Positions 6,795-20,546 are shown, numbered from the stretch's first letter. The stretch: 22,664 nucleotides of DNA from Candidatus Woesearchaeota archaeon (GCA_964545065.1 CAZJEO010000009.1:1-22664), one strand, 5' to 3'. A program made the numbers and translations. Notes: generated by a model from the letters alone, not told the origin.

Positions 6795-9700
6795 TTAAGA
6801 ACCAAAATACTCTTCCACAAATTCCATTATTTCTATAGTTTCTTTAGCATGAGTTTTTCCAGATTTAGATTCATCTCCAGTATAATAAACACTTAAAACA
6901 CATTTCAGGTGATTGTTTGGAGCAGCAACAGGTAAATCTATTTTGTTATTACACTCATTATAATTTGTTATCTTTAATTTATTCAATGCAAGTTTCAATA
7001 TACTTGAAGCATCCCTTATTTGAACTCCTGCACATCTAAGCATCTCCTCTTCACTTACTACTTCTCCTTCACTACATTTATATTTATCTATTAGCTCTGC
7101 TCCAGACCAACCATATTGCATAATCCATCTTGGGTCATATTCTCCTCCAGGATAACCCAAATTACTCTGCCTTATTGCAATTGCAACTAATAATGCTTTA
7201 AATCTATTTACACTCCATCCATCAGGCAAATAATTCTCACTAGTATACTTTTCAAATAGATTAACACCATTAATATCCTTAAGTTTATCATACTTGTCAA
7301 GATATTCAATAAATTCATTCTCACCAACTTCAAGATCTGTACATTGATCAGCACATTGCTGGCACTGCCATTCTTCATCAACACATGTACAATCAACAAA
7401 TTCCCCTGGACACACAGATGTACATTTATGCGTTGTTGACTCCCCAGAAACACATCCTCCAGCTGTCTTTATTTTTTCCAATTCTTCTTTTATCACAATT
7501 CTTGCAATATCAGCATAAGCATTCCCCCTCAACAAAAACAAATAAGCCTTCTCATTATTAAAAAACACTTTGTCAAAAATCTTTTCTATCAACCTCAACT
7601 GTTCAGCCGGTTGTCCTTTCTTATCATTAATCTCCTTAACTTTTGAAGTAAATTCATCATCCTGAAGATAACCTTCCTTATCTATCAAAATATCCAAATA
7701 ATTTCCTGTGACATCTTCTAAAGCCTCTTCTGCAATTCCCTTGCCTTCAATTAAATCCCCTACACTTTCTGTATCAAGCCAACATCCAATATTCTCAGAA
7801 CCACAATAACCAACTTCAACCCATCTTGAATTCTCTGTCTCCACATAAGGATCACTTCCTTCCCCCGGATTCCTTGTAGCACATGTCCTCACAATTCCAT
7901 AATTATAAGCTCCTGGAGTAACAACATCTTGATCAAAAATTGTTCCAGAAACACAGCCATTTACTGTCTTAATATCTCCGTCTTTTATTTGACTCGCAAC
8001 AAATTCATCAGTAATATAGTCCACTGCAAATGAAGTTGAAACTTCCTTAAATCCGCACTCTTCTTGTCCATTAACATTTATGCATAATTGCCTATAACCA
8101 GCAGACTCAGTCAAATCTCTTGTTTCAGAAGCATATTCTCCAATGCCAATATAACCAGAGGCTATCATCAACGTCGAAGAAACATCCTGATAATATGAGC
8201 TTTCAGGAACTCCGCTAAGATAAACCTGATAATACGCTCCCTGATTTTCTCCAGCATAAATATGGTAAAACACCTTGTAATGTGAAATAGGTGGAACAGT
8301 CACAGTTGTAAAAGGAATTTCATCAAATCTTCCATGAAACTGTGCAGGTGAATTCGGTTCTGTTAGCGAGTCAAGCAAATCCCCTCCGCTAGGATAAACC
8401 GCTGAAATAGAATTCTTACATACTAAATCTATTCCTACTTGCTCCATTGACCTGGCATTAAAGGCCCTGTTTGAACTTGTTCCATAATAATTAGTAAAAT
8501 AATTCACAGACTCCTTTGCTGTATTCCATGCACTCACAACAGTCATATACTCTCCTCCGCCTCGAGCATTTTGTCCAAGCAACATTCCTATAGCCTTTGG
8601 TATTGTGATATCTACCAAAGGCAACGCCTGCCTCCAAAAAAACTCACACAGGTAAACACTATGAATCTCGTCACAAATTCCAACCATCTCACCTGTATCC
8701 AATGACTCCTGCAAACAATCCCTGTAAGAATTTTTTACAGAAAGCCAACCATCAATTCCCGCCTTAACTCCAGTAAGACAAACAGGAATTGCAATTCCTT
8801 CTCTTATATTCGGAAAACACAAAGCCAAACTTCCGATTATTCCTGATTGAACAACATCTCTCACAGGATATGCCCCTCCTAAATCACACCTACTTGAAGG
8901 ACAAACAACAGGATCACAAACATTAAATAAAAGATTACAATCCTTTGGAGACATGAAATCCTGGCATTCTATCCCTGGAACATCCACTGCTGGAGCCCCC
9001 ACCTTAATATTCCGTCCTAAAATATTGACAGTCCCTGAAATCCCTGATCCATATGCCCCCTGCGCCTGTTTAAGTGCATCTAAAGCATTACCCACTATCT
9101 TTGCTGATTCTATCTTACTCAGTCCAGAAATCTGGTTTTCAGGTGTTCCTGCTCTCCTATCAATCAAAGTGCAATCATCTTCTGAAATACTTTCCTGCAA
9201 CCCATTTTTCCCAACATTGCAAACCCAAAAACTTGCAACAGCCCCAGATTCGTCATATGCTCCTCTATTCCCTAAGATAGGTAATGTCTGCCTTATCGCA
9301 GCATACCAACCATTATCCAAATCAAAAGGAACAATTGCAGGCATCCCTTTGTAAGGATCCGTTTCATAATATTTAAGTTCAGGATACTTATACTTATTCT
9401 CATAAGATGATTTGTCATATCTTTGGAAATAAATATCTTTCAATCCAGATACATATTCCTCAGGTTCTTCAACAAAATTTCCATTCATATCATATATCAA
9501 AAAGTCACCATTAGCATTTGTTTTAATTGGGAGATTAGGTCCTACTTCATCATTTAAAACAAGTATATATGCTCCTTCTCGATACTGCATAACCTGAATA
9601 GGGGTATCTGGATCTAATCCCAAGCCTACATCCTTAATCTCTCCATAAGTTAATTCATCATAAGGAATTTTTTCAGTATCATCAGTCTCATAAGCTCTTA

Positions 9701-12455
9701 TCTTATCAAGAGGAATTCCTAATCCTCCTGCCCACTCCTTCATCACAGCATAATTACCAGCATTCGTCTTAACATCTAATAATACAGAATAAAGTCTTTT
9801 CTCAGCTACAATTGTCAAATTTTTACTTGTACCATCATCAATCGAAACACTTGTCCAAAATTCAATCTCCCTCATCTGCTCTTGCTTATAACTCCTATCT
9901 TCCCAGCCAGCCAAAATTTTTCTCATATCCTCCATATCAATATCTTCTCCCTCTCCACTAGGATCTGCAAAACTTTCCCCAAGATTATCATCTAAATAAT
10001 TTGTAACATGAATTGAATACTTCTCCATAAACTTATTTGTGTTAACAACACTTGTTCCAAAAATATCTGGTTCTGTAATTCCTTCTCCCAATTCTTTTAT
10101 CCTCTTATTTTGTTTCTCAATCAATTCTGCAAGCTTATCAACATCCTCCTCAATATCCTCAGATTTATCCAACAAGCATTTATCAACTGAAACAAGAGAG
10201 TTAGCGCTTGCGATGTCCGCGCATTTTTCATACCATCCTCCATCTCCCCTCATCACATAATTCCTTGCAATTCCTGCCCCTCCAGCATTCTCCAAAAGAT
10301 TCTTCAAAACCAAACCTGCTCCAGTTGCAAGACACGCCTTATTCAAGCTCTCAGTAACTATTCCCATTACATTGGAAATATTCTGCCATTTCCCTATCTG
10401 ATTTCCTAATAAGTCAATCTTTTCCCTAATCTTCTCAGGAGGCAATTCAAAATTCCTCTTCTCAATATTAATTTTAAATCCAAATTCTGTATCTGTTCCC
10501 ACATCATCAACTCCAGAAATAATAGAAACCCTCGCTACATTATTAAGGTATATTTCAGATAATGTGAAAACAAATCCATTAGAACTTTCTGAAATACTTT
10601 CTTCTAGATTTAAACTTTCACTCTCGCCATTAATAGTAATCTTAATCCTTGCTGAATCTTGTTCAAGAGAAACCAACTGCATTGTACTCTCCTCGCTAAT
10701 ATAAACTGGTTTGTTCTTCCTCAATTCATATGGCTCTAATCCTTCAGGGCTCTCAACAAGAACCGCTGCTCCATAATCCTTAAAGCCAGGTTCATAAATT
10801 CCCCTAAAAGCAATCTTCTTTGTCTGCCCATTAATAGTAATATAATTTATTGCTGATTCTTGATTTGAAAGTCCATAATCATTATCACAAAACTCATCCA
10901 GAATTTTTTCTGAATTAGGATACAAATTTTCAAACTCCCCGCACAACTCAACAACTGTCGCCTTTTGCTCAGTCCCCCAAGCAAGAAAAATCTTTCTGTA
11001 CAACGCCTCTTCGCCAAAACTCCCTGCACTTTTATCAACATAAGATTCTGAAGCAAAACTATCTTCGATCTTTTGATAATCTTCCATAGCATTTTCATAA
11101 TTTTCATTACCCCCTATAACATCGCTATTAATCGGTATTCCAAAACCATTCAAAACAATTTCACTTCCTCCAAATGTTCTTACAAGTCCTTCGCCATAAT
11201 CAATCCACATACGTTGTTCATCTTCTTCAGTATCTACAATTCCTCCCTCAAAATCTTCATCCAAGAGTTCCCCAACAATTGTATTATAATAACTCAATTC
11301 ACTATTGCTCAAACTCTCCCCCTCATCACTTGGCTTTGAAACAAGGAAAACAAACAAATCTTCAGATTTTCTTGGATCTTCTCTAGTTCCAACATGTGCA
11401 AGATAAATATATTTATTATTCTCTTCGTAAAGAAAGTTCCCGACTTCCTTCTCCATTTCCTCTTCGTCAATACTCAAATTCACACGTGGATTAAGCATTA
11501 AATCAAATCCGCTGATTTTTCCATCTTCATTACAATTTATAGATACCTCTTGTTTCAACCCTTCTTTCTCTATTTTAACAACTTCACATTTATTCTCCAG
11601 AAATTTCTCTCCCCTCACAACCTCAACAAGATTATTATTAATCTTTAACAACGCTCTTGAATCAGAATTATCTAAACTATTAAGTTTTAATTTAAAATTA
11701 GCCAGGCACTCAAATCCTGGAAAAGATATCTCCTTAGATTCCTCTTCCTTATTCAGAGAAACACTTGCAACACGTTTATTTTCAGAATAAATAGAAATTC
11801 TTGCACTATCCCCTTCAATATTCTCAGCTCTCAAATATCCTCTTCCATCCCAAAAACTATATCTATATTTATTCGCCTCCCATTCAGCATCATTAAGTTC
11901 AGGAAGGTAAAAATTCACATCACCAACACCAAATGCATTCTTAACATCATACCTTACCCTTGCTGTAAGATTCCCAGAAACAAAATCAGGCATTGCCGAA
12001 GCATTTGCTTGCTTTTTCAAAACAATCACGGTATAACCAATATTATTCAAAAAAGGACTATTCAAATTATCCTCAACACTCAACGCAGCACGCGCAGGGT
12101 GAAAAGCAATTCCCTCTACTTCTGGAGGAACTTCTTGTGAAAATTCTATTCCCTCAATTGCTTCAACATCTATTAAAGGATTAATTTGCGTTGCTCCAAG
12201 CTGACAAAAAACAGGAACATTTTGCTCTTCAAGCAAATCACTCCTCACAATCATAGGTGTGCATCCAAAAGGAGCAATCTGAATCAGAAAATCTGTGCCT
12301 TGTTCACACATTGAATCACCCGAAACTTCAACAGGACTACTCATAAATTGAGTATACTGAACATTTGAACGAGTATAAACGGCAGAAATAAAAGATAAAG
12401 TTAAAACTAAGAGCACAAAAACAATTCCGATTTTTAATGTATTATTTTCTCTCAT
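6795..12455 (-). CDS. Giant secreted protein (1886 aa), family unknown, with Cys-rich regions
   Basis: Uninterrupted 5.66-kb ORF with a Sec-type signal peptide (MRENNTLKIGIVFVLLVLTLSFISAVYT). It has several Cys clusters, for example CQDFMSPKDCNLLFNVCDPVVCPSSRCD and CTSVCPGEFVDCTCVDEEWQCQQCADQC. Its ATG overlaps the upstream stop as TAATG. Confidence 0.8.
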   Translation of the reverse strand: MRENNTLKIGIVFVLLVLTLSFISAVYTRSNVQYTQFMSSPVEVSGDSMCEQGTDFLIQIAPFGCTPMIVRSDLLEEQNVPVFCQLGATQINPLIDVEAIEGIEFSQEVPPEVEGIAFHPARAALSVEDNLNSPFLNNIGYTVIVLKKQANASAMPDFVSGNLTARVRYDVKNAFGVGDVNFYLPELNDAEWEANKYRYSFWDGRGYLRAENIEGDSARISIYSENKRVASVSLNKEEESKEISFPGFECLANFKLKLNSLDNSDSRALLKINNNLVEVVRGEKFLENKCEVVKIEKEGLKQEVSINCNEDGKISGFDLMLNPRVNLSIDEEEMEKEVGNFLYEENNKYIYLAHVGTREDPRKSEDLFVFLVSKPSDEGESLSNSELSYYNTIVGELLDEDFEGGIVDTEEDEQRMWIDYGEGLVRTFGGSEIVLNGFGIPINSDVIGGNENYENAMEDYQKIEDSFASESYVDKSAGSFGEEALYRKIFLAWGTEQKATVVELCGEFENLYPNSEKILDEFCDNDYGLSNQESAINYITINGQTKKIAFRGIYEPGFKDYGAAVLVESPEGLEPYELRKNKPVYISEESTMQLVSLEQDSARIKITINGESESLNLEESISESSNGFVFTLSEIYLNNVARVSIISGVDDVGTDTEFGFKINIEKRNFELPPEKIREKIDLLGNQIGKWQNISNVMGIVTESLNKACLATGAGLVLKNLLENAGGAGIARNYVMRGDGGWYEKCADIASANSLVSVDKCLLDKSEDIEEDVDKLAELIEKQNKRIKELGEGITEPDIFGTSVVNTNKFMEKYSIHVTNYLDDNLGESFADPSGEGEDIDMEDMRKILAGWEDRSYKQEQMREIEFWTSVSIDDGTSKNLTIVAEKRLYSVLLDVKTNAGNYAVMKEWAGGLGIPLDKIRAYETDDTEKIPYDELTYGEIKDVGLGLDPDTPIQVMQYREGAYILVLNDEVGPNLPIKTNANGDFLIYDMNGNFVEEPEEYVSGLKDIYFQRYDKSSYENKYKYPELKYYETDPYKGMPAIVPFDLDNGWYAAIRQTLPILGNRGAYDESGAVASFWVCNVGKNGLQESISEDDCTLIDRRAGTPENQISGLSKIESAKIVGNALDALKQAQGAYGSGISGTVNILGRNIKVGAPAVDVPGIECQDFMSPKDCNLLFNVCDPVVCPSSRCDLGGAYPVRDVVQSGIIGSLALCFPNIREGIAIPVCLTGVKAGIDGWLSVKNSYRDCLQESLDTGEMVGICDEIHSVYLCEFFWRQALPLVDITIPKAIGMLLGQNARGGGEYMTVVSAWNTAKESVNYFTNYYGTSSNRAFNARSMEQVGIDLVCKNSISAVYPSGGDLLDSLTEPNSPAQFHGRFDEIPFTTVTVPPISHYKVFYHIYAGENQGAYYQVYLSGVPESSYYQDVSSTLMIASGYIGIGEYASETRDLTESAGYRQLCINVNGQEECGFKEVSTSFAVDYITDEFVASQIKDGDIKTVNGCVSGTIFDQDVVTPGAYNYGIVRTCATRNPGEGSDPYVETENSRWVEVGYCGSENIGCWLDTESVGDLIEGKGIAEEALEDVTGNYLDILIDKEGYLQDDEFTSKVKEINDKKGQPAEQLRLIEKIFDKVFFNNEKAYLFLLRGNAYADIARIVIKEELEKIKTAGGCVSGESTTHKCTSVCPGEFVDCTCVDEEWQCQQCADQCTDLEVGENEFIEYLDKYDKLKDINGVNLFEKYTSENYLPDGWSVNRFKALLVAIAIRQSNLGYPGGEYDPRWIMQYGWSGAELIDKYKCSEGEVVSEEEMLRCAGVQIRDASSILKLALNKLKITNYNECNNKIDLPVAAPNNHLKCVLSVYYTGDESKSGKTHAKETIEIMEFVEEYFGS

Positions 12456-14308
12456 TAAAAACTAACCTCCAAGTTTTTACCCTCAAACAAAAGATGGTTA
12501 TTCTGAAGTTCCTCAAGAGTTTTCGGAATAGGCAAACTATCTGCATCTATTTCAATTCTTCCAACTCCTGCTAACTGCGATTCCAAAATATAATATTCCT
12601 GTTTTCCGCCTCCTGAAAGAACATTTGAAATAATTTGGTCAGGAATTTCAATATCAAAACATTCTGTCTCTTTCAAACCAAGCAAACCCTTTAAACCAGT
12701 TCCCATAACCTCAACACATTGCTCTGTCGTCGTTGATTCAAACTCCAGAGAAGAATCTTCATAAATATAAACCTGAATTTCATATCCTCCTTCTGCCAAC
12801 TCCACACTATTCTGCTCAGGATAAACAACAGTCTTTGTTCCTTTACCAAAAGTCTCGTCAGGGTCATCCGCCTGGGAAATAAAGTAAATTATTGCGTCAC
12901 CACCATAATCCACTCCATCAAGTTTCAAGTCCACATCAACTTCATAAAGCTTGTTCAAAATAACATCAACACTTCCCCCATTTATTGTAGAAACCTCATA
13001 TTTTGTCTCTTCATATCCTTCTGCTCTCGCAATCACCTCTCCATTCGCGCATTGCGGAAATTTCCCCTCTAACAAACCTCCAGAGCTAGTTCCAATATTA
13101 CATTTCTCCCCAAAACATTCATAAGAAATCTGTGCATCAACAGAATTCAAAGAAGTATCATATGTTCTTACCAAGATTTCAGTGTTCATATATTCACAAA
13201 GTTCCACCTCTATTTTTCCTGCCCCCACATCCAAAGCCTCTCGCGGGTTATTCCCTTGAATCACAACAGCCATTGGGAATTGAAATGTTTCACTTCCACT
13301 TGATACTTGAATTAAAACAGGATATTTTACATTGTAGACAAAATGATACGGAACATAACAAAATCCAAGGACTCCCAACCCTGGCTGATTTCCAACAGGA
13401 TTTGCCAATAATAAATTTCCTTCTGACGGAAGAACTTCAAAAGAACTCGGCCAATTCTGAGAATTAATAAAACGTACCTCTTCATTAACATTTAAATCCA
13501 CAACAAAATATTTATCTTCGCCAGAACCTCTTCCTGTTCGCATAGCAAAAGTGTTTATTTCAATTGCTTCTTCAAGTGAATCAAAAACTTCATCAGCATT
13601 CCAGATCTTTGGTGAGCAGGTAATCTCAACACCATCAACAGGAGCATACAATCTCAAAAAGTCAACAGCATATTCCTCCAAGAACAAATCTTTCTGCTCT
13701 TTAGAATAAATCTCTTTCGCAGAATCATATAATGCTCCAAGTTTTGATTTAACAGAAACTTTGTGGTTGCTGATAGCAGCATGGTCTTCCCCTTTCTGTA
13801 TATTCATTCTCATATCCACCTTAACATCAACAGCATTATCTCTTATGTTCACATCTGCCCTTGGTTCTCCAAATTCAATTTCAAATCCTTCATCGTAATA
13901 GCTTTCAAGATTACAATTTCTCGCTCTTTCTTCTATAAAATTCCTCATCTGCTCTTCCATTTCTTTTTTAGATACAACTTGTTCTTTCTCAATACCATTT
14001 CCTGAAACATAATACCAATAAGGAATCGGGTTTCCTAAAAAATTTAATTGTGATGAAAAAGGCATATGACTACTTCCGGGTTCAAAATCCGGCAACTCAA
14101 TATAACCGCCCTGACTTTCCAAAATGCTAATCCCAACTTCAATATCTTCTTCCAAGCAAACTAAAAAAGCATTATATGCTGGCTCAATATTAGCAGGAAG
14201 CCCACGGAAAATAATCCCTTCCCTAATCATAAAAAAGACAGCAATCCCCGCAACTAAAATTATTGCAATTATAATAAACAAGGTAACTTGTCCTCGCTTT
14301 GATTTCAT
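12455..14308 (-). CDS. Exported protein (617 aa) with a class III (prepilin-like) signal peptide
   Basis: From the ATG at 14308 the sequence begins MKSKRGQVTLFIIIAIILVAGIAVFFMI. This is a KRG/Q cleavage-type motif followed by a hydrophobic helix. The 38 codons upstream in the track ORF use codons that are otherwise rare here. Confidence 0.7.
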   Translation of the reverse strand: MKSKRGQVTLFIIIAIILVAGIAVFFMIREGIIFRGLPANIEPAYNAFLVCLEEDIEVGISILESQGGYIELPDFEPGSSHMPFSSQLNFLGNPIPYWYYVSGNGIEKEQVVSKKEMEEQMRNFIEERARNCNLESYYDEGFEIEFGEPRADVNIRDNAVDVKVDMRMNIQKGEDHAAISNHKVSVKSKLGALYDSAKEIYSKEQKDLFLEEYAVDFLRLYAPVDGVEITCSPKIWNADEVFDSLEEAIEINTFAMRTGRGSGEDKYFVVDLNVNEEVRFINSQNWPSSFEVLPSEGNLLLANPVGNQPGLGVLGFCYVPYHFVYNVKYPVLIQVSSGSETFQFPMAVVIQGNNPREALDVGAGKIEVELCEYMNTEILVRTYDTSLNSVDAQISYECFGEKCNIGTSSGGLLEGKFPQCANGEVIARAEGYEETKYEVSTINGGSVDVILNKLYEVDVDLKLDGVDYGGDAIIYFISQADDPDETFGKGTKTVVYPEQNSVELAEGGYEIQVYIYEDSSLEFESTTTEQCVEVMGTGLKGLLGLKETECFDIEIPDQIISNVLSGGGKQEYYILESQLAGVGRIEIDADSLPIPKTLEELQNNHLLFEGKNLEVSF

Positions 14309-14418
14309 TAAGGTAGGCGAACTCTGCACTTTTGGGGTGGACGAGCGATTTCGCGAGACTTTCTGTAGCCCCTGATTTCGAGCGAGGTCGCGAGTTGGGA
14401 GGGCACAATCTCTACTTC
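14309..14418 (-). promoter_or_regulatory. GC-rich spacer with two CGAGCGAnnTCGCGAG repeats (candidate operator, leader or ncRNA)
   Basis: Hand count gives 46 G+C in the 80 nt at 14331-14410, against a much more AT-rich background. The repeats are at 14342-14357 (cgagcgatttcgcgag) and 14379-14394 (cgagcgaggtcgcgag). Confidence 0.45.
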
Positions 14419-14553
14419 TCATTCTTTCTTCACCTCCAAACCAAGTTTTTTTCTTATCAAATCTAAAATTTCTGTATTAATATCTTTGTTAATAATCTCT
14501 TTAAACTTACTCCAAAGTTTCTCATCCTCTATAAGAAGCAAATACTTTTTCAT
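14419..14553 (-). CDS. Small 44-aa protein, possible ribbon-helix-helix regulator (paralog 1)
   Basis: Not in the ORF track. My translation is MKKYLLLIEDEKLWSKFKEIINKDINTEILDLIRKKLGLEVKKE. A TATA box (atttatatat on the minus strand) lies about 29-38 nt upstream. A paralog is present at 17394-17522. Confidence 0.6.
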   Translation of the reverse strand: MKKYLLLIEDEKLWSKFKEIINKDINTEILDLIRKKLGLEVKKE

Positions 14554-14701
14554 ACAACCTCAGCATCATAAGAAAATTTCAATATATAAATGTTTCTTAA
14601 TAAATAAGTTAGTTACTTAGTAAGTTAGTAAGTAAAATAAAAAAGGGTATAAATCTTATTGAGAAAAAAACTAACTAAATACTTACTGAATTAGTTTCTT
14701 A

Positions 14702-15319
14702 TTATTTTCCTCCAAATAAAAAACGATAACCTCCAGTTAGAGTAATCATACCTCTTACATTTTCACTTGCTGGTAATACTGTATAACTAAGTCTTCCATG
14801 AACTCCATCGAATATAGTTGCACCTATGCCAAATTCTAATCCAAATGTTGAATTTGATACTTCCTCATGAACATCAAATTCTGGGATATCTATTGTTGAA
14901 AATTCACCTAATACATTTACACCAGCCATTAAATATGGTTTTACTTTTGCTGTTGGTTTTAATGGACTAAAACTTGCATTAACCCTTGGTAAGATACTCT
15001 TTGTTTCTATGTATTCTCCAGATGAATGAAAATAATCTAAACCAGCTTCAAGTCCGACTTTTCCTATATTAATACCATAAGCCCCACCAATTAGAAAAGA
15101 AGGATCATAGACTTGTTCTTCTGCTACTACTGGAACTATTACTCCAAGTTTTGGTTCAACATAATGCTTTAAGGATGCACAGGCAACAGTAGTAGCTAAA
15201 AAAGTAACCAAAGTTGCACCTGCAATTACCTTTTCAACTCCATGTTTAAATCTCTGGAAAAATGCTGTTTCTTCGTTAATCTTTGATTCTAGTTTTGATT
15301 TAGTTTCTTTTTGTTTCAT
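14702..15319 (-). CDS. OMP-like 8-stranded beta-barrel protein with an N-terminal signal/anchor
   Basis: 205 aa with a TM/signal segment VIAGATLVTFLATTVACA. This is followed by about 8 amphipathic strands with alternating hydrophobic residues and Gly/aromatic girdles, and the protein ends GGYRFLFGGK. It resembles the bacterial OmpX/OmpW/OMP_b-brl type. Confidence 0.55.
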   Translation of the reverse strand: MKQKETKSKLESKINEETAFFQRFKHGVEKVIAGATLVTFLATTVACASLKHYVEPKLGVIVPVVAEEQVYDPSFLIGGAYGINIGKVGLEAGLDYFHSSGEYIETKSILPRVNASFSPLKPTAKVKPYLMAGVNVLGEFSTIDIPEFDVHEEVSNSTFGLEFGIGATIFDGVHGRLSYTVLPASENVRGMITLTGGYRFLFGGK

Positions 15320-15427: not shown

Positions 15428-17263
15428 TTAAACATAGTAACATCTTCCAAGATTACATATCTCTACCTTACATCTTCCTTCAGTACATCCACCTGGGCAT
15501 ACTTCTATTAATTTAGGAGCAGTTGAAACTGAGCAATATGAATCACATTCATATGTTTTATAGTCTTGCCAAACATCATTACTTTGACAAAAAGGATTTC
15601 CTATATAGCCATCAGTTCCACAACCTAAATCAGAAAAACATTCTATACCTAGAGCTGCTAAAATGTCTATCCTTGGAAAGCTCAAACCATTATCAGGATC
15701 AACAATTGGAATTCCAGTATCCTTCAACCTATCGCTTATTTCATCAGGTGTTAATGATGGTGAAGCTTGTTTTAACAAAGCTATAACACCAGCAACATGA
15801 GGTGTTGCCATAGATGTTCCTGATTTGAATCCATAATTGCCATTAAGTACTGTAGAAAAAATACCCCCACCAGGAGCGAGAACATCAAGCAAACTACCTG
15901 TATTAGTAAAATAAGATATAACATCTGCTTTTGTTGTTGAGCCGACTGAAATTGCATTTGGTGAGCAAGCCGGATATGAAATACCATTAGAATGCCCTTC
16001 ATTACCAGATGCAACTGTTACTGCTATCCCTAAATCATGTGCTGTATCAATAACTTCATCCATCCAAATTGGACATGTTTTTTCATTATATTTTCCTTCG
16101 CCAATACTCATTGTTATTGCTACAATATTATACTCACTACTCTTATTATTACACCAATCAACACCTGCAATCATCGCAGATCCTGAACATCCCTCAGAGC
16201 TCGAACATACTTTCAATGCGAATAATTTAGCATCAGGAGCGACTCCTCTTAGAACACCATTTGCAGCAACGATTCCTGTGACATGTGTTCCATGTCCATG
16301 GTCATCCATAGGGTCAGCATCATTATTAACAAAATCCCACCCCCCAGCAACCTTACAACCCTCACCAAAACAACCTCCCAAATCTCCATGAGTATAATCA
16401 ATTCCTGTATCAAGAACACAAACAAAAGTTCCATTACCAGTCATACCTAAATCCCATACCTTATCTGCATTTATTAACGGAACAGATCCAAAAAGGGTTA
16501 TATTTAATATTAGATCTTCATAAATTGCTTTTACATTTGGGTCTTGTTCTAATTCATCTAAACCTTCTTGTGTAATTTTTCCTGCAAATCCGCTAATAGT
16601 ATTATATCTATATTTAAGATGGAATTCATCTGGATCAAGCTTTAATAATGCCTTATCTTGTTTTGTCTTTACTATTGATTTTATTCCTAATAAACTATTA
16701 TCAGCTATTCTAAGAGTTTCATCGTCTTTTAACATAACAATTATATCTATGAAATCTTCATTCTCATTATTAATCATACTTTTTTTGTCATCAGAACTTT
16801 GAGAATTACTATCATCTACATCAGCTTCGTTATCTGTAGAATCAGAATTATCTGGAGGATTAGTTTCTGAATCTTCACTTTCATCACTAACCGAATCTGT
16901 TTCTTCATTATTTGAATCAGTAGTAGAATCTTCAGGATTATCTAAACCATCTAATTCACTTAAATCAGACTCTTGTGAATTTGAATCTGCATCAGAATTT
17001 GAATTACTTCGTGAGGAGCTTCCACCACCCCCCAAAAAAAGAATATTCTCAGGGTCGTCGTCATCTTCAATATAATTCCCATTTAAATTAAAATTTGACA
17101 AAGGCATTTCATTGTTAATGCCAGATTGTTCTATAACTGACTTTTCTTGTTTAGAATTCTCAAAGTTATGCATGATTACTGAATTAGATAATATTATTAA
17201 ACCTAAAAAAACAACTAAAATAGAAATAATTAAAATAGACATAGCAATATTTCTTTTCTCCAT
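15428..17263 (-). CDS. Membrane-anchored subtilisin-like serine protease (peptidase S8) with an I9-like propeptide and a C-terminal Cys-rich module
   Basis: The catalytic triad contexts are VCVLDTGIDYTHGDL (D), HGHGTHVTGIVAANG (H) and SGTSMATPHVAGVIALL (S). There is an N-terminal anchor IAMSILIISILVVFLGLIIL. A long Ser/Asp/Asn/Glu linker follows it. Confidence 0.9.
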   Translation of the reverse strand: MEKRNIAMSILIISILVVFLGLIILSNSVIMHNFENSKQEKSVIEQSGINNEMPLSNFNLNGNYIEDDDDPENILFLGGGGSSSRSNSNSDADSNSQESDLSELDGLDNPEDSTTDSNNEETDSVSDESEDSETNPPDNSDSTDNEADVDDSNSQSSDDKKSMINNENEDFIDIIVMLKDDETLRIADNSLLGIKSIVKTKQDKALLKLDPDEFHLKYRYNTISGFAGKITQEGLDELEQDPNVKAIYEDLILNITLFGSVPLINADKVWDLGMTGNGTFVCVLDTGIDYTHGDLGGCFGEGCKVAGGWDFVNNDADPMDDHGHGTHVTGIVAANGVLRGVAPDAKLFALKVCSSSEGCSGSAMIAGVDWCNNKSSEYNIVAITMSIGEGKYNEKTCPIWMDEVIDTAHDLGIAVTVASGNEGHSNGISYPACSPNAISVGSTTKADVISYFTNTGSLLDVLAPGGGIFSTVLNGNYGFKSGTSMATPHVAGVIALLKQASPSLTPDEISDRLKDTGIPIVDPDNGLSFPRIDILAALGIECFSDLGCGTDGYIGNPFCQSNDVWQDYKTYECDSYCSVSTAPKLIEVCPGGCTEGRCKVEICNLGRCYYV

Positions 17264-17393: not shown

Positions 17394-17522
17394 TTAAAAT
17401 TCCTCCAAACCAAGTTTTTTCCGTATCAAATTTAAAATTTCTGTATTAAGATCTTTCTTAATAACCTCTTTAAACTTACTCCAAAGTTTCTCATCCTCTA
17501 TAAGAAGCAAATATTTTTTCAT
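17394..17522 (-). CDS. Small 42-aa protein, possible ribbon-helix-helix regulator (paralog 2)
   Basis: Not in the ORF track. My translation is MKKYLLLIEDEKLWSKFKEVIKKDLNTEILNLIRKKLGLEEF. It lies in a 121-nt repeat (17402-17522 versus 14433-14553) with 7 mismatches and no indels. Confidence 0.6.
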   Translation of the reverse strand: MKKYLLLIEDEKLWSKFKEVIKKDLNTEILNLIRKKLGLEEF

Positions 17523-17548
17523 CCAAACCTCTAAAATTGTAAGAAAAT

Positions 17549-19930
17549 TTACACAGTAATAAAAATAGAATTTTCGTTATTATTTTCATCTGTTTCAGAA
17601 ACAATATTATCTTGGTCCACTATTACTTTTGGGAAATAAGTTCCCGGATGGAGATAAACAATTTTCATAAATGCTCTTGTCCATTCTCCAGTATCAAGAT
17701 TTATAGGAGAAGTCCTTTTTGGATTTTCATCATCTGAATCAGTATCAATCATCCAATAAACTTCGTCTGCAGGAACTTCTCCAATGTTCTTGATTGTAAA
17801 TGAAACAAAAACTTCTTTATCTCTTATAAGATAATTCTTAAAATCTGTTACAGTTAAATCTGGCATTAAATATGGTTGATCTAAACATTCTGCATTTTCA
17901 CAACCATAAAGACAATCTTCTCTCGGTTGATTAGCATCTTGTTTTTCACAATATGAACTTATCGTACCAGGATTATGACAAATATATTGCGTATATGTCT
18001 GCCAAACATCTCCCAAAAAACAATCTCTATCGTCTGCCCATCCATCTGCCCCGCATTCTGCATTTGAAGAACAGTTTATTATAGAAGGTTCTTCTACACA
18101 TTCTCCATTTGAACAAATTTCTCCACTAGGACAAACATCACAATCCAAAGTTCCCCCACAACCATCATCCTGAGTTCCACATTCATACCCCAATGAAGCA
18201 CAAGTCTCAGCAACACAAACACCGATACAAGCTCCATCAGAACAAATATTTCCTCCAGGACAAGTATATCTCAAATAAACTACTCTTTCATCCAGACTAC
18301 AAAAAAATTCCCTCAACACAGAACCTCCCTCTTCAACACAGGAATCTGTAAAAACCCCATTAGGTCCACGAGCAGTCCCCTTCACATAATATACCAGCCC
18401 ACCATCAGAATCAGTACAAGTAATAGATGGCTGGCATTTCCCTCCAACACAATTCAAAGAACCACATTCTTCTCTTTTACTTTCTCGAACATTACAAGAA
18501 TCATACCAATAAACATCTCCTCCATAACATTTTGAAGAATCATGCGAACTACAAGATGAAACACAATTCCCATTTCCATCACACTCCACGTTTATCCCAC
18601 ATGAAACTCCCTCAGCATAATTCCTACAACTCCCCAAGATAGTTCCAGTACAAACCTCAGTACGTATATATTTACAAATTCCACAAGAATATTTTAATTG
18701 GTCATTAGACTGGCTACTACAATCAGCGGTATTAGAATCTTTACAATTACCAAAAGCTTCACATCTATTTGAAGTTATATCTTTTTTATTATAACAATAT
18801 TCTGTTGAAGTTGGACGTTGTGTTCCTGTTTGAATATACCATCTACTACAATCTATTGTTTCGCAAGAAGTATCATCCCCTGAAGTTAAACAACTTCCCT
18901 TTGAGTTACATTCCCCACATAATGCACAAGAAGTACCTAATGATTCAAATTCATATGGCCTACTTGAAGTATCACAGCAAGAACCAGAAAAACATTCGCA
19001 ATCAGATTCTTTATAAACATCATATTCAGAGGTGGAATATTCAAGATTATGGGTATAATCACTTGTCAATTTAACTAAAGCATAAATTTCAATTTTTCCT
19101 GTATCATGGGGACTAACAAATTGAGAACTCAAATCAATATTTTCAAAAACATATGAATAATCAACATGCAAATCATCACAATCAATAGAAATATAAGAAG
19201 TTTTTGATGCTATTAAATCATCTTTCAAATAATCAGATTCCATGATTTCTAATTCCATGTCTGCCCTAAAAGAATCCGCAAAAAGACAGGCAACACGCCC
19301 ATTATAATTAAGAGAAGGATATAAATCTCCAAGAACCCTCATATCTATCTCTTCATTTCCGCTACTGCCAACACAAACACTAGAAAGTAATGGTGGAGAA
19401 AAACGTATCCTATCAGGATCCACAATAATCATAATCTGCATATTAGAATCGCTACTCTTAACTTCAAATGAAGCTTCTGCACTATCATCTAAACCAGTCG
19501 TATCAACCACAGAACTAATCTCTAAATTTTCATTCTCCTCCACCACAACATCCCTAGAATCAGAATTTTCAGAACTACTACTCGCTCTTGAAGAACTAGA
19601 ACTACTTTTTCTAGAACTTCTTGAACTACTAGATTTGGTATTCAAAGAATTTATTCTTAGAATCTCCTCAACGTTATTGTCATTTTCTGTATTTAAAAAA
19701 TCTAAATCAGCTTGTTCTTTCTTATCCAGTAAAACAAGTTCTGCTCTTGGTTTCTTCCATATCTTAAACAAGTTCCTAAAAAAATCAAATAAATTAAAAC
19801 GTTCAGGATTAGAATTTAAAGTAATAACATCTGAATTTTGATTTAAATTAATAACCTCTTCTGCTAAAATTGGCAAGATTGACAATATCAAAACCATTAC
19901 AAAAAACAAACACAAAAATTTAGTTTTCAT
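17549..19930 (-). CDS. Secreted Cys-rich mosaic protein (793 aa) with a C-terminal CARDB-like domain
   Basis: It has a signal peptide (MKTKFLCLFFVMVLILSILPILAEE) and a poly-Ser linker. Multiple Cys-rich modules follow. The C-terminus reads PDLTVTDF...FTIKNIGEVPA...VDQDNIVSETDENNN, which matches the CARDB pattern. Confidence 0.8.
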   Translation of the reverse strand: MKTKFLCLFFVMVLILSILPILAEEVINLNQNSDVITLNSNPERFNLFDFFRNLFKIWKKPRAELVLLDKKEQADLDFLNTENDNNVEEILRINSLNTKSSSSRSSRKSSSSSSRASSSSENSDSRDVVVEENENLEISSVVDTTGLDDSAEASFEVKSSDSNMQIMIIVDPDRIRFSPPLLSSVCVGSSGNEEIDMRVLGDLYPSLNYNGRVACLFADSFRADMELEIMESDYLKDDLIASKTSYISIDCDDLHVDYSYVFENIDLSSQFVSPHDTGKIEIYALVKLTSDYTHNLEYSTSEYDVYKESDCECFSGSCCDTSSRPYEFESLGTSCALCGECNSKGSCLTSGDDTSCETIDCSRWYIQTGTQRPTSTEYCYNKKDITSNRCEAFGNCKDSNTADCSSQSNDQLKYSCGICKYIRTEVCTGTILGSCRNYAEGVSCGINVECDGNGNCVSSCSSHDSSKCYGGDVYWYDSCNVRESKREECGSLNCVGGKCQPSITCTDSDGGLVYYVKGTARGPNGVFTDSCVEEGGSVLREFFCSLDERVVYLRYTCPGGNICSDGACIGVCVAETCASLGYECGTQDDGCGGTLDCDVCPSGEICSNGECVEEPSIINCSSNAECGADGWADDRDCFLGDVWQTYTQYICHNPGTISSYCEKQDANQPREDCLYGCENAECLDQPYLMPDLTVTDFKNYLIRDKEVFVSFTIKNIGEVPADEVYWMIDTDSDDENPKRTSPINLDTGEWTRAFMKIVYLHPGTYFPKVIVDQDNIVSETDENNNENSIFITV

Positions 19931-20546
19931 TTTGAGTCAAAAATGTTTCAAGCCTACTTTTAATCTCTTCTTCTGGAAACCCATATAAAAATAAATTAGG
20001 AAATCCATATTCATTCAAAATAGATTGTGCACGAATTGTTTTTTCCCGATCATCTTCTGGTCCGACATAGTTGATTACAAAATCTCTAAGTCCCCTCCCC
20101 CAATAATCAAAAATAAAATCATCTTCTGCTCCAAAAGAAAACCGAACATCCCCTCTAAAAGATTTGTCAACAAGACTCTCCCCCTTCTCTAAAAACTGAT
20201 AACCTCTCCCAGCAAAAACCCCCTCCATAATTTCTCTAGCTTCTTCTTCATTAGGAGAATAAAAAGAATCTTCTGAAGGGGTTTTATCTTCTCCCCATTG
20301 ATTATAAGCCGTCGCCTCAATAGAATTAACTCCCTCCACGATAGGAATAAAAACTTCCTCACCTTCAAACTTCCTACCATTAGCATCAACGCGGACACCA
20401 TCAGAATTAATTGTAGTAAAAAGATATCTAACATTTCCATTATTATAAAAATTCCTTGCTACACCAATTATATCAGGTTGACAAGATAAAAAGACAGTGG
20501 CTAAGGAAAACAAAACTAAACGTCTCAATCCAGAGTAATAACTCAT
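19920..20546 (-). CDS. Putative lipoprotein (208 aa), possibly Tat-exported, function unknown
   Basis: From the ATG at 20546 the sequence begins MSYYSGLRRLVLFSLATVFLSCQPD, with an RR motif and an LSC lipobox-like site. The track start at 20564 is a TTG. A TATA box (ctttataatt on the minus strand) lies about 26 nt upstream. Its 3' end overlaps the next gene's start by 11 nt. Confidence 0.65.
   Translation of the reverse strand: MSYYSGLRRLVLFSLATVFLSCQPDIIGVARNFYNNGNVRYLFTTINSDGVRVDANGRKFEGEEVFIPIVEGVNSIEATAYNQWGEDKTPSEDSFYSPNEEEAREIMEGVFAGRGYQFLEKGESLVDKSFRGDVRFSFGAEDDFIFDYWGRGLRDFVINYVGPEDDREKTIRAQSILNEYGFPNLFLYGFPEEEIKSRLETFLTQNEN

What the first reader, a model, noticed from the sequence alone, without database searches (positions are those of the whole stretch)
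6795..20546. 13.7-kb single-strand cluster of exported proteins: candidate cell-surface or host-interaction module
All CDSs between tRNA-Leu and the L44e operon lie on the minus strand. Every large product carries an export signal.

In transcription order they are:
- Tat-like lipoprotein
- 793-aa Cys-rich/CARDB protein
- 42-aa RHH-like ORF
- anchored S8 protease
- OMP-like beta-barrel protein
- 44-aa RHH-like ORF
- 617-aa prepilin-signal protein
- 1886-aa giant protein

The genes are tightly coupled: an 11-nt overlap at 19920-19930 and a TAATG overlap at 12453-12457. The cluster interrupts otherwise housekeeping DNA. Its 3' end lies 15 nt from an array of tRNA-Leu 3'-end copies.

Adhesin-like domains, a protease, a possible pore-former and dedicated small regulators occur together. 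That combination is what one might expect of an attachment or envelope-attack apparatus in an episymbiotic archaeon. I recognise no described system with this composition.
Basis: partly seen in the sequence, partly recalled or inferred. Interest (0 to 1): 0.75.

Follow-up and report, generated by a model that had tools for sequence, protein, structure and literature searches.

The report
Conserved giant surface-protein operon plus variable island
The 13.7-kb run is not one machine: its last genes are an operon conserved across Pacearchaeota/Woesearchaeota, encoding a pilin-signal protein and a giant secreted protein tipped with a bacterial-cell-wall-type module, and the other five genes are a variable insert of secreted proteins.

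Summary
The sequence-level observation holds: nine minus-strand genes, N-terminal export signals, and the stated overlaps.

The interpretation of one apparatus does not hold. In 87 related loci the 617-aa/1886-aa pair is always adjacent and usually translationally coupled. It sits in the same housekeeping synteny (L44e/S3Ae ... tRNA-Leu/TFB/S8e). It is therefore core genome, not an interruption.

A 67-aa two-TM protein accompanies the pair in 63 loci. A highly conserved 44-aa protein with a palindromic operator accompanies it in about 45% of loci.

The lipoprotein, CARDB protein, S8 protease and barrel protein occupy a variable slot. They are absent from nearly all relatives.

[quoted passage not shown] Its roughly 1600-aa body has no Pfam, PDB or Foldseek relative.

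The window's C-terminal domain belongs to a small lysozyme-like family that co-occurs with peptidoglycan hydrolase and binding domains. Here the conserved Glu is Gln.

Most likely function (inferred): a surface-displayed complex that binds bacterial cell wall. An S-layer-like structural role is the main rival.

Unexpected side result: a bacterial-type OMP beta-barrel lipoprotein always follows a secreted protein carrying a shared Cys-rich C-terminal tail.

The parts
6795..12455 (-). Giant secreted protein, 1886 aa. Layout: Sec-type signal (aa 1-~27), conserved Cys-rich body (aa ~45-1650), Cys-rich linker (aa ~1667-1705), C-terminal lysozyme-like module.
   Evidence: More than 841 homologs at about 45% identity over about 88% of the length. 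Relatives in 464 GTDB species genomes. No Pfam, NCBIfam, PDB or PHROG hit. AF2 halves have mean pLDDT 77 and 67, with no Foldseek match at E<=1e-3.
6798..7313 (-). C-terminal domain of the giant (aa 1715-1886). All-alpha, with lysozyme-like 'ES-motif' features. Gln1763 (codon 7167-7169) sits where the domain family has Glu.
   Evidence: Alignment A3. An exhaustive profile search returns 86 representative clusters. Partner domains elsewhere are M23, PG_binding_1, Phage_lysozyme2, VanY/M15, Amidase_2, LysM and DUF1615/SLT. The motif column holds Glu 55, Gln 23, Asn 4. AF2 pLDDT is about 64-94 here, mostly above 80. The link to Pfam SLT is only weak.
12455..14308 (-). 617-aa protein with an archaeal class III (prepilin-type) signal, MKSKRGQ|VTLFIIIAIILVAG. 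Translationally coupled to the giant by a TAATG overlap.
   Evidence: A homolog lies immediately upstream on the same strand in 84 of 87 loci. The N-terminal motif [KR][GAS]Q[VIL]T[IVL]F[IV]I is shared by nearly all of about 80 species. The stop/start overlap is 4 nt in 36 of 58 loci. No Pfam or PDB hit.
14309..14422 (-). GC-rich (about 51%) 114-nt in-frame insertion that extends the 617-aa ORF to 655 aa.
   Evidence: Absent from L005 and L006. It carries a two-block motif shared with tRNA-adjacent sites in four other genomes. No Rfam family.
14419..14553 (-). 44-aa cytoplasmic protein, MKKYLLLIEDEKLW.KFK..I.KDINTEI..LI.KK. Candidate autoregulator. Its stop overlaps the downstream ORF's start (ATGA).
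   Evidence: Median 78% identity across 34 loci, where the giant has a median of 41%. No Pfam or PDB-profile hit.
14581..14623 (-). Promoter region of the core operon: BRE/TATA-like AAGAAACATTTATATAT (about 14582-14598) and palindrome TTACTWAGTAA (14613-14623).
   Evidence: Conserved in most loci that carry the 44-aa gene. Palindrome density is 2.1/kb here against 0.017/kb elsewhere. It is present in 31/32 loci with the 44-aa gene and 0/40 without it. It is the only such site in the window.
14702..15319 (-). 205-aa bacterial-type OMP beta-barrel-like protein with a hydrophobic, lipobox-like N-terminus. Accessory gene.
   Evidence: PF13505 at 25 bits for the window protein; 28/32 family members match, best E 3.4e-10. 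58 homologs. Most homologs have an LAIGC-type lipobox. It always lies downstream of a protein carrying the Cys-rich tail.
15428..17263 (-). 611-aa subtilisin-family (S8) protease with an I9 propeptide, an acidic low-complexity linker and a Cys-rich C-terminal tail (…GRCKVEICNLGRCYYV, nt 15431-15487). Accessory gene.
   Evidence: Pfam S8 E 7.8e-54 and I9 E 2.8e-7. The DTG/HGTH/SGN/GTSMA catalytic motifs are present. The catalytic part was found in none of the 87 related loci. The tail is shared with proteins upstream of barrel genes elsewhere.
17394..17522 (-). 42-aa duplicate of the 44-aa gene. It is the left arm of a 125-nt direct repeat (17402-17526 / 14433-14557) that brackets the protease-barrel cassette.
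   Evidence: No palindrome lies upstream of this copy.
17549..19930 (-). 793-aa Cys-rich secreted protein with a C-terminal CARDB domain. Accessory gene.
   Evidence: Pfam CARDB E 1.4e-9. An ortholog occupies the same slot in L005. The body (aa 174-673) is homologous to the Cys-tail proteins that precede barrel genes in L090 and L093 (33% identity, E 6e-64).
19920..20564 (-). 214-aa (or 208-aa from the ATG at 20546) putative lipoprotein with N-terminal …GLRRLVLFSLATVFLSC. Accessory gene.
   Evidence: The only homolog among the loci is in L005. No Pfam hit. Tat and lipobox assignment rests on sequence pattern only.
20589..20798 (-). 67-aa two-TM membrane protein.
   Evidence: Homologs in 63 loci, almost always between L44e and the 617-aa gene on the operon strand. 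Weak match to PHROG 37400, function unknown.
6423..6779 (+). tRNA-Leu(TAG) (6423-6508) and two extra copies of its 3' 14-mer (6616-6629, 6766-6779). These are conserved neighbours, not a boundary of a mobile island.
   Evidence: tRNA-Leu is at the same position in six relatives. L005 and L006 each have one extra copy.

Best explanation
The region has two layers.

**(1) Core locus, vertically inherited (Pacearchaeota/Woesearchaeota-type DPANN)**
- A 67-aa two-TM protein.
- In about 45% of species, a 44-aa small protein behind a palindromic operator and a TATA box.
- A ~615-aa protein with a prepilin-type (class III) signal.
- A translationally coupled ~1900-2900-aa Sec-exported, disulfide-rich giant protein.

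Proposed mechanism (inferred):
- The 617-aa protein is cleaved by the prepilin peptidase. Its hydrophobic N-terminal helix keeps it in the membrane or in a short pilus-like stalk.
- The giant protein docks on it and projects a swappable C-terminal 'warhead' away from the cell.
- Across the family that warhead is built from peptidoglycan-directed modules: SLT, DUF1615, glucosaminidase, LysM and the ES-motif domain.
- The complex therefore engages bacterial cell wall, for attachment and/or local lysis.
- In this window the single warhead domain has Gln in place of the family's Glu. It is more likely a wall-binding than a wall-cutting version.
- The 44-aa protein probably autoregulates the operon through TTACTWAGTAA.

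**(2) Variable slot between the 67-aa and 44-aa genes**
- The slot has collected accessory secreted proteins.
- A lipoprotein plus a Cys-rich/CARDB protein are shared only with the closest relative compared.
- A protease-plus-OMP-like-barrel cassette was added by recombination through the 44-aa gene.
For: **Shown**
- The pair is linked in 84/87 loci. Synteny holds with L44e (61 loci), S3Ae (60), TFB (59) and S8e (52).
- The family occurs in at least 464 GTDB species.
- A 4-nt stop/start overlap occurs in 36/58 loci.
- The class III signal motif is shared by nearly all of about 80 species.
- The giant has a single N-terminal hydrophobic segment and 42 Cys, many of them invariant.
- Of the 12 top homologs with any precomputed Pfam hit, 10 are lysozyme-type: 7 SLT, 1 glucosaminidase, 2 DUF1615.
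- The window's C-terminal domain family co-occurs with M23, PG_binding_1, Phage_lysozyme2, VanY, Amidase_2 and LysM.
- The motif column is Glu 55 / Gln 23.
- Palindrome and 44-aa gene co-occur in 31/32 loci against 0/40, Fisher p 1.4e-19.
- The L44e-to-617 spacer has a median of 787 nt in 60 loci and is 6567 nt here.
- A 125-nt direct repeat brackets the protease and barrel genes.

**Literature**
- Castelle et al. 2021 proposed attachment to bacterial walls for a family matching this description.
Against: - Nothing here demonstrates function, surface location or a physical 617-giant interaction.
- The ~1600-aa conserved body has no recognisable fold relative. Its most conserved stretch (aa ~1158-1370) is modelled with pLDDT below 50.
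- About three quarters of the top 120 homologs have C-terminal regions with no recognised PG module.
- The link between the window's C-terminal domain and SLT is weak: hhalign P 0.03, no Pfam hit, no bridge by iterated HMM.
- No pilus-assembly genes lie within 10 kb in six genomes.
- Class III signals also occur on non-pilus surface proteins (my own knowledge).
- Universal presence next to ribosomal genes fits a structural envelope role at least as well.
- The palindrome/44-aa association is confounded by adjacency and by shared ancestry.
Confidence: 0.5

Rival explanations
1. The 617-aa and giant proteins are the main structural envelope (S-layer-like) of these archaea: a membrane-anchored stalk plus a large canopy protein, analogous to SlaB/SlaA. 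The variable C-terminal modules are decorations.
For: - Near-universal, vertically inherited and syntenic with ribosomal and TFB genes.
- A strong, conserved TATA promoter.
- A two-gene translationally coupled arrangement.
- Both proteins are exported and acidic.
- No other function is assignable.
Against: - No Foldseek or sequence similarity to any solved S-layer protein. The best such hit is the Methanosarcina DUF1608 domain at E 0.36.
- Median identity of 41% over about 1600 aa, with dozens of invariant Cys, is unusually conservative for S-layer proteins (the comparison is my own knowledge).
- N-glycosylation sequons are depleted: 6 observed against 13.4 expected, and 0 against 3.4.
- Enzymatic PG-hydrolase and LysM modules are not expected on a self-envelope protein of a wall-less archaeon.
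Confidence: 0.25
2. One reading: all eight or nine genes form one co-functional attachment or envelope-attack apparatus made of adhesins, a protease, a pore-former and regulators.
For: - Same strand, close packing, all products exported.
- The barrel and a Cys-rich tail protein recur directly upstream of the core operon in three other lineages: L068, L090-92 and L093-95.
- This suggests the slot preferentially hosts surface proteins that may cooperate with the core.
Against: - The S8 catalytic domain is in none of the 87 related loci. The 214-aa and CARDB genes are in one. The barrel is in 1 of 87 giant-centred loci.
- 47 of 60 loci have no room for any insert.
- The core has its own conserved promoter downstream of the island.
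- Barrel genes also occur away from the core, in L088 and L089.
Confidence: 0.1
3. The cluster is a mobile or horizontally acquired island integrated at tRNA-Leu.
For: - Repeated copies of the tRNA-Leu 3' end lie next to the cluster's 3' end.
- GC is slightly higher in the giant and 617-aa genes.
Against: - The repeats enclose only 122 and 150 nt.
- There is no integrase or transposase ORF in the window.
- The pair occupies the same position next to tRNA-Leu and TFB in distant relatives.
- Tetranucleotide correlation with the flanks is 0.84-0.90, which is explainable by protein composition.
Confidence: 0.03

Closest known systems
[quoted passage not shown] 2021, PMC8204110; earlier noted by Rinke 2013 and Castelle 2015)
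   Same: - Same taxa, size range (up to about 3000 aa) and predicted extracellular location.
- Several close homologs of the window protein carry PF01464 SLT.
- This is very probably the same family.
   Different: - The identity with fam00969 is inferred from the published description, not from sequences.
- The window protein has no Pfam SLT domain. It has a divergent ES-motif domain with Glu replaced by Gln.
- I found no mention in the papers read of the operon partners, the conserved synteny, the operator or the absence of any fold relative for the 1600-aa body.
Bacterial type IV pilus minor-pilin plus large tip adhesin sets (PilY1/PilC type)
   Same: A prepilin-signal protein is encoded directly upstream of, and coupled to, a very large secreted protein thought to contact other cells. 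This is a functional analogy.
   Different: - No sequence or fold similarity was detected.
- The partner is 617 aa rather than a ~150-aa pilin.
- No pilus ATPase or platform genes are nearby.
- The comparison rests on my own knowledge of PilY1 systems.
Sulfolobales S-layer pair SlaA/SlaB
   Same: A two-gene unit encoding a membrane-anchored smaller protein and a very large exported protein, which is core to the lineage.
   Different: - No similarity was detected.
- The anchor is N-terminal and of class III type, not a C-terminal TM.
- Sequons are depleted.
- The C-terminal modules are PG-directed.
Modular peptidoglycan hydrolases and endolysins (SLT/GH23, GH73 glucosaminidase, LysM, M23, Amidase_2 combinations)
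   Same: The variable C-terminal end of the giant family uses the same module repertoire. The window's domain family is found fused to these modules.
   Different: - Here the modules cap a ~1600-aa body of unknown fold in an archaeon.
- The window's copy lacks the conserved Glu.
SPEARE giant surface proteins of Ca. Nanohaloarchaeum antarcticum (Hamm et al. 2019; my own knowledge)
   Same: Giant multidomain secreted proteins of a DPANN archaeon, proposed to mediate host contact.
   Different: - Different lineage and domain content (protease, adhesion and endonuclease domains).
- No homology was tested or seen here.
Bacterial 8-10-stranded outer-membrane beta-barrels (Pfam PF13505 OMP_b-brl; OmpX/OmpA-N type)
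   Same: - The 205-aa protein's family matches PF13505 in 28/32 members, best E 3.4e-10.
- Members end in a GGYRF-type aromatic C-terminus.
   Different: - It is encoded in archaeal contigs next to L44e/S3Ae.
- It carries a lipoprotein-type signal.
- It is always paired with a Cys-rich-tail protein.
- The window copy scores below Pfam's cut-off.
- No PDB sequence relative was found.

Membership tests
Pace/Woesearchaeota giant LT-domain protein family (fam00969-like) | Full-length homology to the ~2000-3000-aa family restricted to Pacearchaeota/Woesearchaeota | tested here: met
   More than 841 hits. The top 120 have 42-79% identity over 50-100% of the query length. All named hits but one (labelled Patescibacteria) are labelled Pacearchaeota, Nanoarchaeota/Nanoarchaeia or simply 'archaeon'.
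Pace/Woesearchaeota giant LT-domain protein family (fam00969-like) | Predicted extracellular (N-terminal signal, no other TM) | tested here: met
   One hydrophobic segment at aa 4-30. No other 19-residue window exceeds KD 1.3.
Pace/Woesearchaeota giant LT-domain protein family (fam00969-like) | Pfam SLT (PF01464) lytic transglycosylase domain | tested here: not met
   No Pfam hit for the whole protein or its C-terminus at E<=1. Homologs such as P0113 do have it.
SLT/GH23 lysozyme-like domain (for aa 1715-1886) | Significant profile similarity to SLT | tested here: inconclusive
   hhalign places all four motifs in register, but P is only 0.03 and probability 1.6%. An iterated HMM does not reach SLT-positive members. 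The only fold-level hint is an LT_GEWL phage protein at E 0.26.
SLT/GH23 lysozyme-like domain (for aa 1715-1886) | Catalytic Glu in the E-S/T motif at the end of the first core helix | tested here: not met
   The window has R-Q1763-S. The domain family has Glu in 55 and Gln in 23 of 85 aligned sequences.
SLT/GH23 lysozyme-like domain (for aa 1715-1886) | Association with peptidoglycan-directed modules | tested here: met
   M23, PG_binding_1, Phage_lysozyme2, VanY/M15, Amidase_2, LysM and DUF1615/SLT occur in proteins sharing the domain.
Archaeal type IV pilin-like (class III signal) proteins (for the 617-aa protein) | Short basic leader, [KR][GAS] cleavage motif, then a ~20-residue hydrophobic helix | tested here: met
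   MKSKRGQ-VTLFIIIAIILVAGIAVFF. The motif is shared by nearly all of about 80 orthologs.
Archaeal type IV pilin-like (class III signal) proteins (for the 617-aa protein) | Prepilin peptidase and pilus assembly ATPase/platform present, often nearby | tested here: not met
   None in the window or within 10 kb in six related genomes. The rest of the genome is not available.
Archaeal type IV pilin-like (class III signal) proteins (for the 617-aa protein) | Assembly into a filament | not testable with these tools
   Needs microscopy or biochemistry.
Archaeal S-layer proteins | Sequence or fold similarity to known S-layer proteins | tested here: not met
   No PDB sequence or profile hit. Foldseek best S-layer hit is E 0.36.
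Archaeal S-layer proteins | High abundance, lattice formation, glycosylation | tested here: inconclusive
   Sequons are depleted rather than enriched. Abundance and lattice formation are not testable here. The one metaproteome paper read gives no information.
Ribbon-helix-helix regulators (for the 44-aa and 42-aa ORFs) | Homology to RHH families | tested here: not met
   No Pfam hit at E<=0.1. A family profile against the PDB finds no RHH protein.
Ribbon-helix-helix regulators (for the 44-aa and 42-aa ORFs) | Small dimeric DNA binder acting on a repeat or palindrome at its own promoter | tested here: inconclusive
   The palindrome TTACTWAGTAA upstream of the TATA box co-occurs with the gene in 31/32 loci against 0/40. 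Binding is untested.
Pfam OMP_b-brl (PF13505) (for the 205-aa protein) | Match above Pfam's gathering score | tested here: inconclusive
   The window protein scores 25 bits against a cut-off of 28.7. 28/32 family members match at E<=0.01, best 3.4e-10.
Pfam OMP_b-brl (PF13505) (for the 205-aa protein) | Resides in an outer membrane, inserted by BAM | not testable with these tools
   The host organism is an archaeon, as shown by L44e/S3Ae neighbours. No outer membrane is known for this lineage (my own knowledge).
Peptidase S8 (subtilase) | Pfam match, Asp-His-Ser triad, I9 propeptide | tested here: met
   PF00082 E 7.8e-54 and PF05922 E 2.8e-7. DTG285, HGTH324, SGN419 and GTSMA482 are present.
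tRNA-integrated genomic island | Integrase, att repeats bracketing the island, and absence from relatives | tested here: not met
   There is no integrase. The repeats bracket only 122 and 150 nt. The pair is present at the same site in all relatives examined.

The most novel reading that the evidence does not exclude
These wall-less DPANN archaea carry a dedicated cross-domain contact kit for bacterial hosts.
- A pilin-anchored giant protein with an otherwise unknown ~1600-aa fold presents interchangeable murein-binding or murein-cutting heads.
- Next to it, in some lineages, a bacterial-type OMP beta-barrel lipoprotein is paired with cargo proteins through a shared Cys-rich C-terminal tail. 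The barrel would either tether that cargo to the archaeal surface or insert into a Gram-negative host's outer membrane.

This would be an undescribed protein-sorting or anchoring system in archaea. It would also be direct genetic evidence that many Pacearchaeota and Woesearchaeota live on bacteria.
Probability: 0.12. Interest if true: 0.85.

Novelty: new variant of a known kind. Interest (0 to 1): 0.6.

Why it matters
Pacearchaeota and Woesearchaeota are among the most widespread uncultured archaea, and their hosts and mode of attachment are unknown.

This analysis turns a one-line literature note ("large LT-domain proteins") into a defined, lineage-wide locus:
- fixed genomic position;
- a prepilin-signal partner;
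- a small membrane protein;
- a candidate regulator with its operator;
- a swappable peptidoglycan-directed tip.

That yields concrete reagents and tests for whether these archaea attach to bacteria:
- peptidoglycan binding or lysis by the Glu-type and Gln-type domains;
- antibodies for cryo-ET;
- EMSA with the palindrome.

The recurrent pairing of an OMP-like barrel with a Cys-tail protein in archaeal genomes is a separate, apparently undescribed association that deserves its own study.

Tried and rejected
**Searches that found nothing useful**
- PDB sequence and profile searches for the giant, the 617-aa protein, the C-terminal domain, the 44-aa family and the barrel family.
- Foldseek of both AF2 halves against the PDB, and of the C-half against BFVD. 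Nothing at E<=1e-3, only generic Ig/FnIII-like sandwiches.
- Pfam on the 14 C-terminal domain sequences: no SLT.
- Iterated HMM search among 91 C-terminal regions: converged on 18 members without reaching SLT-positive ones.
- PHROGs: nothing for the core proteins.
- Rfam on the GC-rich insertion and on the tRNA-Leu repeat region: no family.
- The metaproteome paper on Pacearchaeota: no information on these proteins.
- The 2026 complete-genome preprint: no mention.
- Cluster look-up for organism names: none.

**Hypotheses rejected**
- Island hypothesis. GC and tetranucleotide profiles show no foreign signal beyond protein-composition effects. Synteny contradicts integration.
- Internal transmembrane or pore-forming helices in the giant's most conserved, low-pLDDT region. 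Maximum 19-residue KD hydropathy is 1.3.
- The protease-barrel pair as a conserved unit. The barrel pairs with any protein bearing the Cys-rich tail, not specifically with a protease.

**Not attempted**
- A structure model of the 617-aa protein, because both prediction jobs went to the giant protein.

Full report
**1. What is in the sequence**

The window has about 33% GC and carries archaeal housekeeping genes. On one side are a HIT protein, a class II aminoacyl-tRNA synthetase, RNase Z, LSM, S8e, pyrophosphatase, TFB and tRNA-Leu. On the other are L44e, S3Ae and tRNA-Thr.

Between tRNA-Leu and L44e, every credible ORF lies on the minus strand. In transcription order they are:

| Coordinates | Product |
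|---|---|
| 19920-20564 | 214-aa putative lipoprotein |
| 17549-19930 | 793-aa Cys-rich protein with CARDB |
| 17394-17522 | 42-aa ORF |
| 15428-17263 | 611-aa S8 protease with I9 propeptide |
| 14702-15319 | 205-aa OMP_b-brl-like protein |
| 14419-14553 | 44-aa ORF |
| 12455-14422 | 655-aa ORF whose conserved start gives 617 aa |
| 6795-12455 | 1886-aa giant protein |

- Each large product has a single hydrophobic segment, at its N-terminus.
- The stated overlaps are real.
- The S8 protease has its catalytic motifs.
- The tRNA-Leu 3' 14-mer is repeated twice downstream. The last copy ends 15 nt from the giant's stop codon.

**2. The cluster is two things, not one**

The giant protein has more than 841 homologs. 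The best 120 are 42-79% identical over most of their length. All named hits but one (labelled Patescibacteria) are labelled Pacearchaeota, Nanoarchaeota/Nanoarchaeia or simply 'archaeon'. A scan of one genome per GTDB species found relatives in 464 genomes.

I compared the window's proteins with 87 fetched loci.

- A homolog of the 617-aa protein lies immediately upstream on the same strand in 84 loci. In the other three, the giant gene starts at the contig edge.
- L44e, S3Ae, TFB and S8e flank the pair in 61, 60, 59 and 52 loci. This is the same arrangement as in the window.
- tRNA-Leu sits between the giant gene and TFB in six relatives checked.

So the pair does not interrupt housekeeping DNA. 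It belongs to that conserved block.

The other genes behave differently.

- The S8 catalytic domain was found in none of these loci.
- The 214-aa and CARDB genes were found only in the closest relative compared, L005 (77% identical giant).
- The barrel was found in one locus, L068.
- The distance from L44e to the 617-aa gene has a median of 787 nt in 60 loci, and 47 of them are at or below 1200 nt. In the window it is 6567 nt, the largest seen.

The 42-aa ORF is a 94%-identical copy of the 44-aa ORF. The two copies form a 125-nt direct repeat that brackets exactly the protease and barrel genes. That cassette was therefore added by recombination through the small gene.

GC content and tetranucleotide usage give no sign of foreign origin. 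There is no integrase.

**3. The conserved core**

*The pair.* The stop of the 617-aa gene overlaps the giant's start by 4 nt in 36 of 58 loci and lies within a few nt in several others. The window has the 1-nt TAATG form.

*The 617-aa protein.* The family begins with [KR][GAS]-Q-[VIL]-T-[IVL]-F-[IV]-I followed by a hydrophobic helix, in nearly all of about 80 orthologs. This is the archaeal class III (prepilin-type) signal pattern; that assignment rests on my own knowledge of PibD/EppA substrates. In the window, a GC-rich 114-nt in-frame insertion precedes this start.

*The 67-aa protein.* A two-TM protein lies between L44e and the pair in 63 loci.

*The 44-aa protein.*
- It is present in 34-36 loci and is very highly conserved, with median identity 78% against 41% for the giant and 64% for S3Ae.
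- It has no signal peptide and no Pfam or PDB-profile relative. 'RHH-like' is therefore unproven.
- Its upstream region holds a conserved AAGAAACATTTATATAT box. About 30-40 nt further upstream is the palindrome TTACTWAGTAA.
- Allowing one mismatch, the palindrome occurs at 2.1 per kb there against 0.017 per kb in 1.1 Mb of other locus DNA.
- It is found in 31 of 32 loci that have the 44-aa gene and in none of 40 that lack it (Fisher p 1.4e-19).
- Adjacency and shared ancestry inflate this statistic. Even so, conservation of an 11-nt palindrome in AT-rich spacer DNA, across genomes whose giant proteins are about 40% identical, points to an operator.
- The duplicate 42-aa copy has no such site.

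**4. The giant protein**

- The body (aa ~45-1650) is conserved throughout, with dozens of invariant Cys, Gly and Pro. Everything after about aa 1650 is hypervariable.
- Pfam, NCBIfam, PHROGs, PDB sequence search and a family-profile search against the PDB all found nothing.
- I modelled it in two halves with a 51-sequence alignment.
  - The N-half (mean pLDDT 77) is beta-rich, with a helical domain around aa 670-915.
  - The C-half (mean pLDDT 67) has confident beta domains and a confident all-alpha C-terminal domain.
  - The most conserved stretch of the whole protein (aa ~1158-1370, containing FNVCDPVVCPSSRCDLGG) is modelled as long helices with pLDDT below 50.
- Foldseek against the PDB and BFVD gave no match at E<=1e-3, only generic Ig/FnIII-type sandwiches.
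- No internal segment is hydrophobic enough for a transmembrane helix.

**5. The variable tip points at peptidoglycan**

Twelve of the top 120 homologs have a precomputed Pfam hit. Seven are SLT, one is glucosaminidase, two are DUF1615, one is trypsin-like and one is TPM (positions checked).

The window's own tip (aa 1715-1886) has no Pfam hit. It carries the motif series …LLVAIAIRQSNLG…WIMQYG…SVYYTG…HAKETI.

- A profile-profile comparison lines these motifs up with the E-S, GLMQ and YNG motifs of SLT-positive relatives. Statistical support is weak (P 0.03).
- An iterated HMM search does not bridge the two groups.

Stronger evidence comes from context.

- An exhaustive profile search of 1.84 billion representative proteins finds only 86 clusters with this domain.
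- In shorter proteins it is fused to Peptidase_M23, PG_binding_1, Phage_lysozyme2, VanY/M15 and Amidase_2.
- In longer giants it is followed by LysM and DUF1615/SLT.
- At the motif position, 55 family members have Glu, 23 have Gln and 4 have Asn. The window and its clade have Gln (Q1763).
- Glu-to-Gln at the catalytic Glu is the classic inactivating change in lytic transglycosylases (my own knowledge). The window's version is therefore more likely a wall-binding module than an enzyme.

**6. Comparison with the literature**

Castelle et al. 2021 (PMC8204110) describe fam00969. [quoted passage not shown] This is very probably the same family.

A 2024 paper repeats the GH23 observation.

I found no description of the operon partners, the fixed synteny, the operator, the missing Glu or the lack of any fold relative. 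The library searched is limited to open-access papers and preprints.

**7. Most likely mechanism**

*Shown:* a vertically inherited, translationally coupled operon encoding exported proteins; a prepilin-type signal on one of them; peptidoglycan-type modules at the variable tip of the other.

*Inferred:*
- The 617-aa protein anchors or stalks the complex through its processed N-terminal helix.
- The giant protein docks on it and presents its tip to bacterial cell wall.
- The 44-aa protein autoregulates the operon.

I put this model at about 0.5.

The main rival, at about 0.25, is an S-layer-like structural pair.
- For it: universality, and position among ribosomal genes.
- Against it: no similarity to any S-layer protein, unusually high conservation, depleted N-glycosylation sequons (6 observed against 13.4 expected in the giant; 0 against 3.4 in the partner), and enzyme or LysM modules.

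**8. The accessory slot and a side finding**

The 205-aa protein belongs to a tight family of 58 proteins. Twenty-eight of 32 members match Pfam OMP_b-brl, with a best E of 3.4e-10. Most have a lipobox, and members end in …GGYRF.

I examined six independent genomic contexts.

- In four, the barrel gene lies directly upstream of the 44-aa/617-aa/giant unit: the window, L068, L090-92 and L093-95.
- In two, it lies elsewhere, in L088 and L089.
- In all six, a secreted protein upstream on the same strand ends in a shared Cys-rich tail. Examples are …GRCKVEICNLGRCYYV in the window's protease and …CKVEECEEVCSPTKCYEYCVWQ in L093.
- In L090 and L093 the tail-bearing protein is a homolog of the body of the window's 793-aa protein (E 6e-64).

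The barrel therefore pairs with the tail, not with the protease as such. Whether it tethers that cargo or does something else is unknown.

A bacterial-type OMP barrel in archaeal genomes appears not to have been discussed for this lineage.

**9. Verdict**

- The single-apparatus interpretation is not supported.
- The core pair is a real and interesting conserved system of unknown structure. Its giant component has already been noted in the literature.

Interest 0.6.

Noticed in passing
window 14702-15319 and 15431-15487; L068 165-3324; L088 267-8603; L089 3256-8561; L090 2602-5245; L093 3498-6570: A bacterial-type OMP beta-barrel lipoprotein (about 190 aa) follows a secreted protein ending in a shared Cys-rich tail (C.VE.C…C.Y.YC) in 6 of 6 independent archaeal contexts. 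It is directly adjacent in 5 of them. This may be an undescribed sorting or anchoring pair.
   Followed up: partly
window 14309-14422 (minus strand); L079 13788-13839; L035 14907-14965; L060 11679-11732; L015 150-203: A GC-rich 114-nt in-frame insertion sits at the 5' end of the 617-aa gene. It carries a two-block motif (AACTCGCGACCTCGCTCG … TCGCGAAATCGCTCGG) that is nearly invariant in four other genomes (one substitution per block in one or two of them). In three of them (L079, L035, L060) it lies 30-60 nt from a long-arm tRNA gene. There is no Rfam match. It may be a small tRNA-linked mobile element.
   Followed up: partly
window 6616-6629 and 6766-6779; L005 15632-15645; L006 7795-7808: Extra copies of the tRNA-Leu(TAG) 3' 14-mer lie downstream of the tRNA: two in the window and one in each of two close relatives, with different spacings. 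They look like scars of repeated integration and excision, but no cargo remains.
   Followed up: partly
window 20589-20798 (minus strand): A 67-aa two-TM membrane protein is conserved in 63 related loci between L44e and the 617-aa gene.
   Followed up: partly
window 6795-20564, secreted proteins: N-X-S/T sequons are strongly depleted in the exported proteins (observed/expected): giant 6/13.4, 617-aa protein 0/3.4, protease 3/7.1, CARDB protein 1/8.9. This suggests selection against N-glycosylation.
   Followed up: no
window 8346-8984 (giant protein aa ~1158-1370): The most conserved stretch of the giant protein has ten Cys, nine of them invariant and one nearly so, and includes FNVCDPVVCPSSRCDLGG. 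It is the least confidently modelled part (pLDDT below 50, long helices). It may be a partner-binding or conformationally mobile region.
   Followed up: no
window 21937-22440 (minus strand): A 167-aa protein has an N-terminal signal, a weak MG2/NPCBM-like beta-sandwich match and a C-terminal TM anchor. Weak homologs occur near the core locus in L003, L020 and L055.
   Followed up: no
L068 165-2747; L090 2602-4674; L093 3498-5984: The Cys-tail proteins of other lineages start with K[KR]AS[VF]T[LI]VFL[IV]VS. This resembles the class III signal of the 617-aa family, so prepilin-type export may be shared by core and accessory proteins.
   Followed up: no
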